From the NCBI RefSeq assembly GCF_009914755.1, contig NC_060931.1: a stretch of DNA of 64,000 nt; one strand, given 5' to 3'. The notes below the pieces were generated by a model. It saw only the letters and a list, made by a program, of their open reading frames with translations. It ran no database searches and was not told the origin of the DNA. The stretch is from the human T2T-CHM13v2.0 reference genome, Homo sapiens. Shown piece by piece: positions 2,079-51,927 of the stretch. Every line of letters starts with the position of its first letter. Within the stretch, counting starts at the first letter, position 1. A program made the translations under genes and the position numbers.

Positions 2079-2456
2079 GTGCTTTGTTAGGGCAGCCCTA
2101 GAAAACTAAAACATTCCTCCACAATTATGTTGAATTCTCTCTGCTAAAGTAACTGGTGCAGTTTTTGTCTCAGAACTGGACCCTGAATGATACAGAAATA
2201 GCTACCAGTGGGGCACTAGGAAACATACCTTCAAGGAGGGTATTGGGATGGACTTGGTCTTGTCCTTGGTCTCTAAGGCAGTGCTGAGCACCTGGTTGGA
2301 TCCTGAATTGTAGGGGATGGCCATAGGAAGAAGGTCATAAAGGCACTGTTTCATAAGCTCATCAGCTTCCTTCTATGAGTGGACTGCACTATGGTCTCTA
2401 CTCAAGTAAAACTCGATTTTGTCAGTTCGGCTCAAGGAGGAAAATGAATTCTTTAA

Positions 2457-2528
2457 AGGGGGCACCCAGAGTTGATCCAGGGACCTCTTGATCTACAGTT
2501 AAATGCTCTACCACTGAGCTATAATTGA
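2457..2528 (-). pseudogene. TRY-GTA11-1: tRNA-Cys-derived pseudogene with GTA (Tyr) anticodon
   Basis: Reverse complement TCAATTATAGCTCAGTGGTAGAGCATTTAACTGTAGATCAAGAGGTCCCTGGATCAACTCTGGGTGCCCCCT; Cys body, 5' acceptor strand replaced by TCAAT, B box mutated. Symbol recalled, not verified. Confidence 0.88.
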
Positions 2529-8882: not shown

Positions 8883-9162
8883 AGAAGGAATATAAAGTTG
8901 GATCAGGCTGAATGTATTTAAATGGGCTCACTGAGCTGAGATTTTCCAGATTTAGTGTGTTAGCTCCACGGACTGGGAATGACTCTGAAAGGATATCTTC
9001 AAAGGGGACAGCTGGATTTGAACCAGAGACTTCTTTAATTTGCAGTCAAATGCAGACTATATCCACATTCTGCTAGTGTGGCTGACTGAAAAACAGGCCC
9101 AAAGGTAGCCTACACCAAATGAACTTGAAATGCCAGAGCTTCCTTGGTATGTTGTAGTGGAA
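8883..9162 (+). mobile_element. ERV-L gag remnant interrupted by a tRNA-Cys relic
   Basis: Translates RRNIKLDQAECI*MGSLS...FSVLA...[insert]...VWLTEKQAQR*PTPNELEMPELPWYVV, matching the HERV-L gag motif series. Confidence 0.7.
9003..9066 (-). pseudogene. tRNA-Cys relic, D-arm/A-box deleted, B box intact
   Basis: Reverse complement GTGGATATAGTCTGCATTTGACTGCAAATTAAAGAAGTCTCTGGTTCAAATCCAGCTGTCCCCT. Confidence 0.82.
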
Positions 9163-20424: not shown

Positions 20425-21495
20425 GGAGGTGAGCAGACCAGAGCTGGCATGGTAACTCGAGGGTGTCTTTAGAGACACAGGCTCCTTTTATCTCTCTGGT
20501 CAGCCTTCCTTAAAATGTGGATCCCATCCTCAAAGTTGACTCATGGTCTAAGTTGATAGCTTGTGCCCCAGCCATCACATCTATGTTATAAGTAGGAAGC
20601 AGAAGTAAAGGCAAAAGAAGCACATGACATGTTTGTCCTTCTCTTAAAATTTCCCAGAAGTCTTAACTGTTCCTTATCCCTCATGTGTATGCCACCCCTG
20701 GCCAAAGACGGCCTAGGAGTGTGGTCTTTTAGCTGAGAACATAACTGCTCAGTATGAAATCTGAGTTTCTATTACTACAGAAGAGAAAAGAATGAATATT
20801 GGGTACTTAACTAGTAGCCTCCTTTGAGACACACACACATACACACACACGTGTGGCACTGTTTCTACAATTTTTAAAAAGTGGATAAAATACAGCAAAT
20901 ATTCAGGGTCGCTGTGTTGCATCATTCCAGGGTGCTGTGTAATTGGTAAAGTTATAAAATGTGCAACCTGTGTGTCTGCACATGGTTGCCCTGGCAACCA
21001 CCATCATCTCTCCAGTGTTTCATGTATTAAGACCTATCATATTAATGTCTGCTGCTCTTTGAGCTAATAACATATTTTTAACGATTGGTGAATTGGTCTG
21101 TTTTCCCTCTGCATGATTACTAGGAGCTATGAGATGTTTTGAATTCCACAGTAAGAGCTTCTCCTAACCTAGGATCTTTGGAATAATTATTTGCTACCTC
21201 TCCTAGACATTTGGCTCTGGCATTTTAATACTCGTTTTACCAGTTAGAGTTTTATTGTGTCTTTTATTGTAAGTTGCCTTGGATTCTTTTTTTAAAGCAA
21301 GCTTGGTGTAAACAAATAAAATCTTGGTGGTAATAATTAGGTACAAGGGAAACAGAAAAAATCTAGGGCAGCTTTCCTCTACCCCTCCAGGAAATGATTA
21401 TGGCTGAGGAGGTAAAAATGAAATATGTGAAAAATGTCACAAGAGAAACACTTCAGTCTTTGCCATTGGTTGGAAAATTTGGTTCCTTGAGGCTG

Positions 21496-21908
21496 GCCTA
21501 CCAGATAACAAGGAGCTATACTATAATTGCCCAGTGTAAAATGGTAGTGACAAAGGGGGCACCTGGATTTGAACCAGGGACCTCTTGATCTGCAGTCAAA
21601 TGCTCTACCCCTGAACTATACCCCCCAAGGTACTCATCTTCTTTCAATAAAGATATATTAATAATCACAGTCATTCACAAGCTACGCTCTGGCCACTCTG
21701 TCTCCAGAGTGTGGAGTTATGTAATGCACAACAGAGCAGCTCTTCTGTACAACCCCCTCCACACCTGCCGGCACCTGGCCAATTAAGCTGCAGCCTTAGC
21801 TTTTTGGGAAAAGGAGAGTGGTGGGGTTAAATCCAGATATAGACATAGCTTGAGGGCCTGGGTTCGGGCCCTGGGCCTGATTGTTCTGGAGTGCAAGGAG
21901 CCCCTACT
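21496..21908 (+). repeat. tRNA-containing duplicated unit, probable donor (partner 23245-23677)
   Basis: gcctaccagataacaagg...gagcccctact repeated 1.75 kb downstream with few substitutions. Confidence 0.95.
21554..21625 (-). tRNA. TRC-GCA18-1: tRNA-Cys (GCA), D-stem C11U variant
   Basis: GGGGGTATAGTTCAGGGGTAGAGCATTTGACTGCAGATCAAGAGGTCCCTGGTTCAAATCCAGGTGCCCCCT; T4 terminator at 21538-21541. Symbol recalled, not verified. Confidence 0.94.
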
Positions 21909-22363
21909 TGATAGTAATTGATGTTCCAATATTGAGCCATCAGTGCATTTCTGTTTTAAGTCTTTCTTGGTTATGTGGGATTGTACTATTGGATAAGGTT
22001 TTCTACTATTTTGTCTAGATTACTCTGAAATGAGATTGGCCTATAGCTTTCTTTGTGGTATATGCTCTTGTAATTTATTTTTTATATCAGGATTATGTGA
22101 ATTTTCTAGAATGATTTGGAGAGATTTAAAGCGTTCTACGCTGGAACATTATATATAACATAAAATTACATATTCTTAACTAAAGATTAGCAGAAACTTG
22201 CTTGTAAGCCTCTGGGTGGGGTGCCTTTTGTGAGGAAGAGCTCCTTAATGATCTTTTAATGAATTCTGTCATTATTGGTCTATTTAAGTGCTCTGCTTCA
22301 TCTTAGGTCACTTTTAGTAATTCATTTTCACTTAGAAAATATAATAAAGTTGTACATAGTATT

Positions 22364-22695
22364 TGCTTTTCTTTCCTTCCTTTCTTCCTCCCTTCCCTTC
22401 CCTTCCTTCTTTTCTTTTCTTAGATGGAGTTTTGTTCTTGTTGCCTAGGCTGGAGTGCAATCTTGGCTCACTGCAACCTCCACTTTCTGGGTTCAAGCAA
22501 TTTTCCTTCCTCAGCCCCCTGAGTAGCTGGGATTACAGGCACCCACTACCATGCCCAGCTAATTTTTGTATTTTTGGTAGAGATAGTGTTTTGCCATGTT
22601 GGTCAGGCTGGTCTCGAACTCCTGACCTCAGGTGATCCACCTGCCTTGGTCTCCCAAACTGCAGAGATTACAGGTGTGAGCCACTGTGCTCGGCC
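22364..22695 (-). mobile_element. Alu (AluS) with CT-rich tail
   Basis: Reverse Alu preceded by (CTTC)n/(CTTT)n. Confidence 0.92.
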
Positions 22696-23140
22696 CATAG
22701 TATTCTCTTATAATCTGAAATTTTATTTAGCTATGTTCTATTTTTTTTTCATTATGTTGTTCATTTGTCTTTTTTGGCTTAGACAACATGAAGATTCGTT
22801 TATTTTTTGAGGTAAAAATTCAGATCCAACTTCAGTTACCAACAGTTGATCAGTTGATCTCAGTAGTTGTTGCCTCTTGTATTTTGAAGCTCTGTTAATA
22901 GATGCATACACACTTAAGACTGTTATGTCCTATTGATGAACTGATCTTTTTATCATTATGAAATATTCCTCTTCAATTCAGTAATTTTCCTTGTTCTGGT
23001 CTATTTAGTCTGTTATAAAATACACTTTTCATCTTTCTTTTGGTTAGTATTTGTTTGGCATATACTTTTTCCACTCTCTTAAATTATTCATCTTATTATA
23101 TTTAAAGTGGCATTCTTATAGATAGCTTATAGATTTCTTT

Positions 23141-23770
23141 GTTCAAGTGATCCTCCCGTGTCAGCCTCCCAAGTAGCTAGGACTACAGGTGTGAGTCACC
23201 ATGCCCAGCTAATTTTTTTAAAAATTATTTTTCGTAGAGACAGAGCCTACCAGATAACAAGGAGCTATTCTATAATTGCCCAGTGTAAAAGGATAGTGAC
23301 AAAGGGGGGGCACCTGGATTTGAACCAGGGACCTCTTGATCTGCAGTCAAATGCTCTACCCCTGAGCTATACCCCCAAGGTACTCATCTTCTTTCAATAA
23401 AGATGTATTAATAATCACAGTCATTCACAAGCTACGCTCTGGCCACCCTGTCTCCTGTAGCTCTCCAGGAGCTACAGGTGTGGAGTTATGTAATGCACAA
23501 CAGAGCAGCTCTTCTGTACAACCCCCTCCACACCTGCCAGCATCCGGCCAATTAAGCTGCAGCCTTAGCTTTTTGGGAAAAGGAGAATGGTGGGATTAAA
23601 TCCAGATGTAGACATAGCTTGAGGGCCTGGGTTTGGACCCTGGGCCTGATTGTTCTGGAGTGCAAAGAGCCCCTACTAGCCTCAAACTCCTGGCCTCAGG
23701 TGTTCCTGCGGCCTCAGCCTCCCAAAGTGCTGAGCCAAACTCCCAAAGTGCTAAGCCAGTGTGCCCAGCC
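23141..23770 (-). mobile_element. AluJ-like element split in two (23141-23244, 23678-23770) by the tRNA duplication unit
   Basis: ...gtagagacaga | insert | tagcctcaaactcctggcctcagg...cccagcc are consecutive Alu segments. Confidence 0.85.
23305..23376 (-). tRNA. TRC-GCA10-1: tRNA-Cys (GCA), C73 discriminator variant
   Basis: GGGGGTATAGCTCAGGGGTAGAGCATTTGACTGCAGATCAAGAGGTCCCTGGTTCAAATCCAGGTGCCCCCC; T4 terminator at 23287-23290. Symbol recalled, not verified. Confidence 0.95.
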
Positions 23771-24139
23771 ACATTTGGTTTTATTTGTTCCAAATACTAG
23801 ATTTTGTTCTTGTTTTCCTGACTTCATTGGGATTTCATTTTTTTAATGATCTCCTTTTGTCTCCACCATGAGCTTATTAGCTATTCCTCTTTGTTTTATA
23901 TTTTTTAGGGTTCCTCTAGAGATCACAGTATCATCTTTAACTTATCACATTTTACCTTCAGATAATGTTTTGCTACTTCTCTGATAGTGTAAGAATCTTA
24001 CAACAGATTTCCATTCCCCTCATTTTGTCCTTTGTGTTATTATTGTCATAGATTTTACTTCTATGTATATTATAAACCCAGTATATTTATATTATTTTTG
24101 CATTACTTATCTCTTTTTTTGTTGTTTTTAATTTTTTAA

Positions 24140-51855: not shown

Positions 51856-51927
51856 AGAGGGCACCCATATTTGAACCAGGGACCACTTGATCTGCAGCCA
51901 AATGGTTTACTCCTCAGCTATACCCCC
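51856..51927 (-). pseudogene. Degenerate tRNA-Cys (GCA)
   Basis: Reverse complement GGGGGTATAGCTGAGGAGTAAACCATTTGGCTGCAGATCAAGTGGTCCCTGGTTCAAATATGGGTGCCCTCT; D and T stems broken. Confidence 0.88.

What the first reader, a model, noticed from the sequence alone, without database searches (positions are those of the whole stretch)
23245..23677. Birth of a tRNA gene: 433-bp unit copied from 1.75 kb away into the middle of an Alu
Seen: 21496-21908 (terminator, tRNA and ~280 bp of 5' flank) recurs at 23245-23677. The second copy interrupts an Alu between ...gtagagacaga and ...agcctcaaactcctggcctc, replacing about 20 nt of Alu consensus, with no TSD or poly(A). Inference: this fixes direction (21.5 kb donor, 23.3 kb recipient), age (after AluJ, so primate-specific) and mechanism (DNA-templated repair, not retroposition or unequal crossover).
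Basis: partly seen in the sequence, partly recalled or inferred. Interest (0 to 1): 0.72.

Follow-up and report, generated by a model that had tools for sequence, protein, structure and literature searches.

The report
tRNA-Cys gene copied into an Alu
A 413-base piece carrying a cysteine tRNA gene and its flanks was copied 1.75 kb downstream into an old Alu repeat before humans and macaques split, but both genes look silent, so it is a clean but ordinary example of break-repair duplication.

Summary
21496-21908 recurs at 23245-23677 (17 substitutions in 412 aligned bases plus three indels), and the 283-nt 5' flank has only these two copies in the genome. The second copy splits one old, collinear Alu, from which 21-23 nt are missing, and it has no poly(A). 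One sub-claim fails: the pentamer AGCCT flanks the insert on both sides, so "no TSD" is not strictly true.

Published ortholog tables (Thornlow 2020) support the direction and refine the age. The 21.5-kb gene has orthologs in cow, horse and armadillo. The 23.3-kb gene has orthologs only in human, chimp and macaque, so the copy predates the human-macaque split.

The mechanism is most likely a local templated insertion at a break, joined through microhomology. An RNA patch or a captured fragment cannot be excluded.

Functionally this is modest. Both genes are listed as inactive. On the human lineage the donor gained C11>T, and the copy gained a CC insertion that replaces the discriminator U73, a major cysteine identity element, with C73.

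It is a new, well-documented member of a known kind. Interest is about 0.3.

The parts
21496..21908 (-). Donor unit (copy A): 58-nt 3' trailer, tRNA gene and 283-nt 5' flank
   Evidence: Its flanks 21000-21495 are unique in the genome. 21909-22330 has only three weak partial matches elsewhere.
21554..21625 (-). TRC-GCA18-1, tRNA-Cys(GCA), the donor gene. It keeps U73, carries C11>T, and has an extra G at -1.
   Evidence: Rfam tRNA 64.9 bits; ARAGORN anticodon gca; comparison with other Cys loci. Orthologs in cow, armadillo, horse, gorilla, macaque and chimp.
23245..23677 (-). Inserted copy (copy B) of the donor unit
   Evidence: The 283-nt flank has only these 2 copies in the whole assembly.
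23305..23376 (-). TRC-GCA10-1, tRNA-Cys(GCA), the new gene. Positions 1-72 are identical to four other Cys loci, but the discriminator is C.
   Evidence: Rfam 68.5 bits. Orthologs only in macaque and chimp. Listed as inactive.
23304..23305 (-). 2-nt insertion (GG on the + strand, CC in the tRNA sense) that puts C at discriminator position 73
   Evidence: Alignment gap and flank comparison. Distance to TTTT is 14 in human against 12 in chimp and 13 in macaque.
23130..23244 (-). Host Alu: part of the right monomer plus the A-rich linker. Its 3' end (about 85 nt and the tail) is absent.
   Evidence: MAFFT with 12 window Alus. 26 of 104 mismatches to their majority.
23678..23770 (-). Host Alu: left monomer, collinear with 23130-23244
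   Evidence: 23 of 85 mismatches to the majority.
23244..23248 (+). AGCCT, left copy of the junction direct repeat. Its last four bases are shared with the donor's start (GCCT).
23678..23682 (+). AGCCT, right copy of the junction direct repeat, at the point where the Alu resumes
23454..23478 (.). Perfect 10+5+10 palindrome found only in copy B. It accounts for the 19-20-nt indel against copy A.
22800..23129 (.). Old interspersed repeat that hosts the Alu, left side
   Evidence: 793 first-look candidates, of which 40 were scored, at about 70-74% identity. Collinear with the right side in L007, L010 and L011.
23771..24110 (.). Old interspersed repeat that hosts the Alu, right side
   Evidence: 265 first-look candidates, of which 40 were scored

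Best explanation
A resident, eutherian-old tRNA-Cys(GCA) locus at 21.5 kb served as the template for a 413-nt patch. The patch comprised the tRNA gene, its Pol III terminator and 283 nt of upstream flank. It was inserted in direct orientation 1.75 kb downstream, at a break inside an already old Alu.

Joining used a few bases of microhomology. GCCT is shared by the donor's start and the Alu. The join left AGCCT on both sides of the insert and 21-23 nt of Alu missing. This happened after the Alu inserted and before the human-macaque split.

Shown here or in published tables: the two-copy unit, the split Alu, the junction letters, the direction, and the minimum age.

Inferred: that the template was local DNA (synthesis-dependent repair, replication template switch, or capture of a DNA fragment) rather than RNA.

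The result is a second complete Pol III gene. Both copies sit in inactive chromatin according to the published table. On the human lineage each acquired a lesion: C11>T in the donor, and a CC insertion giving C73 in the copy.
For: Repeat and boundaries.

Only two copies of the flank exist in the assembly.

The Alu halves are collinear in one orientation, with 21 and 22 nt missing on the two Alus where this could be measured. They are similarly diverged, at 26/104 and 23/85 mismatches.

The donor's flanks are unique or nearly so.

Ortholog table S12 of PMC6961574: the donor row holds Bos, Dasypus, Equus, Gorilla, Homo, Macaca and Pan. The copy row holds Homo, Macaca and Pan only. Spacing between the two genes is 1733 nt in macaque, 1768 in chimp, and 1751 in human hg38 and in this window.

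In macaque the two orthologs are named Cys-GCA-6-3 and 6-4, that is, one mature sequence. Both score 77.2 bits.

There is no poly(A). The unit extends beyond any Pol III transcript on both sides.

AGCCT lies at both junctions.

Proximity and direct orientation fit a local template (inference).
Against: A-B divergence is 17/412 = 4.1%. That is on the low side for a duplication older than the human-macaque split. From recalled divergence figures I would expect about 6%. My own, uncalled, estimate of the Poisson 95% range for 17 events is about 2.4-6.6%. Later gene conversion, or a date close to the split, must therefore be allowed.

The empty site was not seen in any outgroup, because no primate genomes are held here.

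Gorilla lacks the copy in the table and orangutan lacks both genes, so absences in that table are not reliable.

A 5-nt flanking repeat is also a feature of endonuclease-type insertion. Nothing here distinguishes a DNA template from an RNA template.
Confidence: 0.75

Rival explanations
1. RNA-templated patch. A read-through transcript covering the tRNA locus was reverse-transcribed and used to fill a break. This would be a class 2 templated sequence insertion, or endonuclease-independent LINE-1 activity.
For: The TSIP review (PMC5110952, passages read) describes patches with microdeletion and microhomology and without poly(A), and argues that they derive from RNA. The junctions here have those features.
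Against: No transcript is annotated over 21496-21908 in the gene table supplied. The donor lies only 1.75 kb away in the same orientation, whereas the review describes such patches as templated from distant genomic regions. The unit contains a Pol III terminator. These points are inference, not tests.
Confidence: 0.1
2. Tandem duplication of the whole 1749-nt segment (21496-23244), followed by a deletion that removed all of the second copy except its first 433 nt, together with about 22 nt of Alu.
For: The left junction (23244|23245) is exactly what a tandem duplication of 21496-23244 would create. The boundary letters show a weak resemblance, GAGACAG against GAGGCTG.
Against: It needs two events. 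The deletion's right end would have to fall within about 22 nt of the duplication breakpoint by chance. It also does not explain AGCCT on both sides.
Confidence: 0.05
3. The two Alu parts are separate insertions, or the 23.3-kb copy is the older one.
For: The Alu has no tail or target duplication of its own that would prove unity, because its 3' end is missing.
Against: The parts are collinear in one orientation, with adjacent consensus positions only 21-22 nt apart, and similarly diverged. The homology between the copies ends exactly at the Alu junctions, so a B-to-A copy would have to stop at both junctions by chance. The published ortholog sets place the 21.5-kb gene in non-primates and the 23.3-kb gene only in catarrhines.
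Confidence: 0.02

Closest known systems
Templated sequence insertions at double-strand breaks (class 2 TSIPs; NUMT-type and filler-DNA repair patches)
   Same: A few hundred bases copied from elsewhere while the donor is retained. No poly(A). A microdeletion at the target. Microhomology at a junction. Compare with the description read in PMC5110952.
   Different: The donor is 1.75 kb away on the same strand, not a distant locus. A 5-nt direct repeat flanks the insert, which the review lists as a class 1 feature. The event is fixed and at least as old as the human-macaque ancestor, so it is not a polymorphism.
Local duplication and turnover of tRNA genes in primate tRNA clusters
   Same: tRNA genes proliferate locally and then decay (passages of PMC4981973). 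Thornlow 2020 notes that tRNA-Cys has no core primate ortholog set and the most distinct sequences of any isotype.
   Different: In this cluster, 8 other flank-sharing pairs share 628-2644 aligned columns, with windows capped at +-1300 nt. This pair shares only 434 and has unrelated sequence on both sides. It is therefore a much smaller, insertional event rather than a segmental duplication.
   Same: A short direct-orientation copy of nearby sequence, minimal microhomology, and an extra small palindromic block inside the copy of the kind that error-prone template switching can leave.
   Different: No further template-switch segments or inversions are seen. Whether the palindrome arose in the same event is unknown.

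Membership tests
tRNA-Cys(GCA) gene (Pol III type 2) | Cloverleaf scoring above the Rfam tRNA gathering score, with anticodon GCA | tested here: met
   68.5 bits (copy) and 64.9 bits (donor) against a gathering score of 29. ARAGORN reports anticodon gca.
tRNA-Cys(GCA) gene (Pol III type 2) | Discriminator U73, a major cysteine identity determinant | tested here: not met
   The copy at 23305-23376 has C73 and the donor has U73. 21 of 23 registered Cys loci have T (one further locus, L029, fell out of register and was dropped). Only this copy and C7:150873095-150873166 have C. The rule comes from PMC9976931, Table 1 and the 'Cysteine identity' section. Aminoacylation itself was not tested.
tRNA-Cys(GCA) gene (Pol III type 2) | T-run terminator shortly downstream | tested here: met
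   TTTT lies within 12-14 nt of the 3' end in both copies.
tRNA-Cys(GCA) gene (Pol III type 2) | Transcribed, or in active chromatin | not testable with these tools
   Published table S3 of PMC6961574 lists both as predicted inactive (-0.82 and -0.84) and experimentally inactive.
Dimeric Alu SINE (host element) | Left and right monomers collinear with an A-rich linker | tested here: met
   Alignment with 12 window Alus.
Dimeric Alu SINE (host element) | 3' poly(A) tail and target-site duplication | tested here: not met
   The element stops at 23130, about 85 nt short of its 3' end. About 64-116 nt of the host repeat are missing as well, which fits a later deletion.
Dimeric Alu SINE (host element) | Subfamily AluJ | not tested
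   No repeat library is on hand. The element is the most diverged of those compared, at 25-27% against 6-14%. That measure is biased, because the 12 reference Alus define the majority.
LINE-1-mediated retrocopy / class 1 TSIP | Target duplication of 5 nt or more | tested here: inconclusive
   AGCCT lies on both sides, but four of its five bases are also donor sequence.
LINE-1-mediated retrocopy / class 1 TSIP | Poly(A) tract, and insertion at a T-rich/A endonuclease site | tested here: not met
   There is no A-run or T-run at either end, and the target reads GACAG/AGCCT.
Class 2 templated insertion (break-repair patch) | Donor retained; microdeletion and/or microhomology at the junctions; no poly(A) | tested here: met
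Class 2 templated insertion (break-repair patch) | No target-site duplication | tested here: inconclusive
   The AGCCT repeat.
Unequal crossover / NAHR tandem duplication | Homologous repeats at the breakpoints, and duplication of the whole period | tested here: not met
   Only 413 of the 1749 nt are repeated, and there is no shared repeat at the boundaries.

The most novel reading that the evidence does not exclude
The patch was not copied from the chromosome in a single pass. Instead it came from a small circular or nascent-strand DNA shed from the tRNA locus, for example at a fork stalled by the Pol III gene. Slightly more than one unit length was copied, which would explain why the same five bases (AGCCT, including a base that matches neither the donor nor the window Alus) sit at both ends. 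If this is general, tRNA genes would seed their own short-range copies through break repair. That would be a second mode of cluster growth beside segmental duplication.
Probability: 0.1. Interest if true: 0.55.

Novelty: new member of a known kind. Interest (0 to 1): 0.3.

Why it matters
The locus is an unusually legible record of how a complete Pol III gene, with promoter context and terminator, can be duplicated by a sub-kilobase repair patch. The split Alu gives polarity, published ortholog sets give an age bracket, and both junctions can be read.

It also shows the fate of such copies. Both paralogs are silent, and each picked up a lesion on the human lineage. One of these removes the discriminator base that cysteinyl-tRNA synthetase relies on.

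It does not change current understanding of tRNA gene evolution. It is a good teaching case, and a test locus for primate T2T and pangenome data.

Tried and rejected
- Other tRNA-Cys genes as sources. Within the window they share only the 72-nt body. Genome-wide, the 283-nt flank has no third copy.
- Priming from a near-identity at the junctions. The donor's left boundary and the Alu at its right junction are nearly identical over 10 nt: AGGCTG+GCCT against the window Alus' AGGCTG+GTCT. I could not build a priming or crossover scheme that uses this and still gives the observed order of parts, so I treat only GCCT as microhomology.
- The 19-20-nt block in copy B as a patch from the neighbouring Alu. 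It shares CTACAGGTGTG with 23183-23193, but the perfect 10-nt arms fit a snap-back equally well. This is left unexplained.
- Gene-conversion tracts between the copies. The 17 differences are spread evenly, so there is no sign of one.
- Literature. A search for the two gene names found 1 paper, and it reports only a rare anticodon variant. A broad search on the chr7 tRNA-Cys cluster returned nothing relevant among the 25 papers listed. No paper describing this insertion was found in those two searches.

Full report
**1. Observation**

The window holds two copies of one unit.
- blastn aligns 21496-21908 with 23245-23677 at 91.0% over 434 columns, E 5e-178.
- The repeat finder reports four in-register blocks of 64, 71, 84 and 200 nt at 95-99% identity.
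- A global alignment gives 17 substitutions in 412 ungapped columns: 14 transitions and 3 transversions, with 3 at CpG. There are three indels: 2 nt extra in the second copy, 1 nt extra in the first, and 19 nt extra in the second. The Jukes-Cantor distance is 0.042.
- Outside these limits the two loci are unrelated.

Each unit carries a tRNA-Cys(GCA) gene on the minus strand. ARAGORN finds both. Rfam tRNA scores are 64.9 bits at 21554-21625 and 68.5 bits at 23305-23376. Each unit also has 58 nt of trailer with a T4 run and 283 nt of 5' flank.

The other tRNA-Cys genes of the window share only the tRNA body. In the whole assembly the 283-nt flank has just these two copies; 2 of 2 candidates were scored.

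hg38 coordinates in a published table give the same 1751-nt spacing between the two genes, so this is not an assembly artefact.

**2. The Alu**

I aligned 23100-23244 and 23678-23800 as separate rows with 12 full-length Alus of the window.
- The left part covers the right monomer from 23130 and the A-rich linker, and stops at GTAGAGACAGA.
- The right part resumes at AGCCTCAAACTCC and runs through the left monomer to 23770.
- Both parts are in the same (minus) orientation.

On the two window Alus whose BLAST alignments reach both junctions, the missing stretch is 21 nt and 22 nt.

The parts show 26/104 and 23/85 mismatches to the 12-Alu majority, against 6-14% for the 12 themselves. That comparison is biased, because the 12 define the majority. 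Equal and high divergence fits one old element.

The Alu lacks about 85 nt of its 3' end and its tail. It sits in an old interspersed repeat, which I read as LINE-1-like from recall; no tool named it. That repeat has hundreds of copies at about 70% identity. In three copies where both sides could be placed, about 64-116 nt of the host repeat are missing here. A later deletion probably removed the Alu's 3' end together with adjacent host sequence.

I could not test the subfamily label AluJ.

**3. Junctions**

There is no A-run or T-run at either end of the unit on either strand.

AGCCT occurs at 23244-23248 (one base outside the unit plus its first four, GCCT) and again at 23678-23682, where the Alu resumes. 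A match in that register occurs at 104 of 63537 window positions, and in any of six registers at 572 of 63537.

The first A matches neither the donor, which has G at 21495, nor the window Alus, which have G at that point. The two pentamers therefore look like copies of one another.

Either reading fits end-joining or template-switch repair:
- a 5-nt target duplication with 4 nt of donor-target microhomology, or
- copying slightly past one unit length.

**4. Direction and age**

Internal evidence:
- The homology stops exactly at the Alu on both sides of the second copy.
- The first copy's left flank is unique in the genome.
- Its right flank has only three weak partial matches elsewhere.

External evidence comes from Thornlow et al. 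2020 (PMC6961574; I read passages of the main text and searched supplementary tables S3, S8 and S12).
- Ortholog table S12, row 546, places the 21.5-kb gene (hg38 chr7:149375758-149375830) with genes in cow, armadillo, horse, gorilla, macaque and chimp.
- Row 2692 places the 23.3-kb gene (chr7:149377509-149377581) with macaque and chimp only. These lie 1733 and 1768 nt from the donor's orthologs.

So the donor is eutherian-old, and the copy arose after the Alu inserted but before the human-macaque split. I recall that split as about 25-30 million years ago.

Caveats:
- Absences in the table are weak evidence. Gorilla lacks the copy, and orangutan, night monkey and mouse lemur lack both genes. 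The upper age bound therefore rests on the Alu alone.
- The 4.1% divergence is somewhat low for that age. Gene conversion, or a date near the split, cannot be excluded.

**5. The genes**

I compared 24 Cys sequences in tRNA orientation. One (L029) fell out of register and was dropped, leaving 23.
- Positions 1-72 of the copy's tRNA are identical to four other loci.
- The donor differs by C11>T and has a G at -1.
- The discriminator is T in 21 of the 23, and C only in the copy and in C7:150873095-150873166.
- The copy's C73 results from a CC insertion between C72 and the original T.

U73 is listed as a major cysteine identity determinant in Bacteria, Eukarya and Archaea (PMC9976931, Table 1 and the 'Cysteine identity' section).

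Table S8 lists the macaque orthologs as Cys-GCA-6-3 and 6-4, that is, one mature sequence. Both score 77.2 bits. Both chimp orthologs and the gorilla donor ortholog also score 77.2. The human genes score 71.8 and 74.9. Both human lesions therefore arose after the human-chimp split. This is an inference from scores and names; I did not see the sequences.

All of these genes are predicted inactive, and the two human genes are also inactive in the epigenomic data.

**6. Mechanism**

- A Pol III retrocopy is excluded by the unit's extent and the lack of a tail.
- Unequal crossover is excluded by the lack of boundary repeats, and because only 413 of the 1749 nt are repeated.
- The remaining reading is a repair patch at a break in the Alu. 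A nearby donor in direct orientation favours a local DNA template: synthesis-dependent repair, a replication template switch, or capture of a fragment.
- The review of templated sequence insertions (PMC5110952, passages) argues that similar patches derive from RNA. I cannot exclude that.
- A tandem duplication followed by a deletion needs two events and a coincidence.

**7. Context and novelty**

I compared 23 chromosome-7 Cys loci with +-1300 nt of flank.
- 238 pairs have an alignment that spans the tRNA, and 215 of these share the body only.
- 8 other pairs share 628-2644 columns.
- One further long hit, w1474 with w2455, is an artefact of overlapping windows.
- This pair, at 434 columns, is the shortest flank-sharing pair.

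Local proliferation and decay of tRNA genes in primates is established (PMC4981973, passages; PMC6961574).

I found no description of this particular insertion. The gene-name search gave 1 paper, on an unrelated point. The broad cluster search gave nothing relevant among the 25 papers listed.

**Verdict.** It is a well-documented new member of a known kind with little functional weight.

Noticed in passing
window 23454-23478: A perfect palindrome (10-nt arms, 5-nt loop) is present only in the copy. Its right arm plus the following bases share CTACAGGTGTG with the neighbouring Alu part at 23183-23193. Its origin is unresolved: snap-back synthesis, a short Alu-templated patch, or a deletion in the donor.
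   Followed up: partly
window 23129/23130, with 22800-23129 and 23771-24110: The host Alu lacks about 85 nt of its 3' end and its tail, and about 64-116 nt of the surrounding old interspersed repeat are missing at the same point. This looks like one later deletion.
   Followed up: partly
window 23719-23758: A tandem duplication of about 20 nt lies inside the Alu's left monomer. The stretch ctcccaaagtgct[g/a]agcca occurs twice in a row.
   Followed up: no
window 51856-51927 and 9003-9066: Two degenerate tRNA-like sequences on the minus strand sit just above the Rfam gathering score (29.7 and 29.1 bits). The first is called tRNA-Cys by ARAGORN. Neither is in the gene table supplied.
   Followed up: no
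G000:C7:150873095-150873166 (L032): Among the loci compared, this is the only other tRNA-Cys gene with C instead of T at the discriminator. It also has G5>A.
   Followed up: no
chromosome 7 Cys cluster, loci L040-L055: Eight pairs of cluster members share 628-2644 aligned columns of flank at 85-94% identity, with windows capped at +-1300 nt. These are larger segmental duplications. Three genes (150770978, 150794968 and 150828846) share at least 1300 nt of 5' flank but only 5-18 nt of 3' flank.
   Followed up: partly
window 2453-2528 (TRY-GTA11-1): This gene matches the Cys tRNA body at 88-89%. PMC4981973 describes a Cys(GCA)-to-Tyr(GTA) remolding older than the human-rhesus ancestor. Whether that is this locus was not checked.
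   Followed up: no
window 21626-21908 and 23377-23677: The published average phyloP of the 5' flanks is about -2.0 to -2.2 for both genes and their primate orthologs. This could reflect fast evolution or paralogous misalignment.
   Followed up: no
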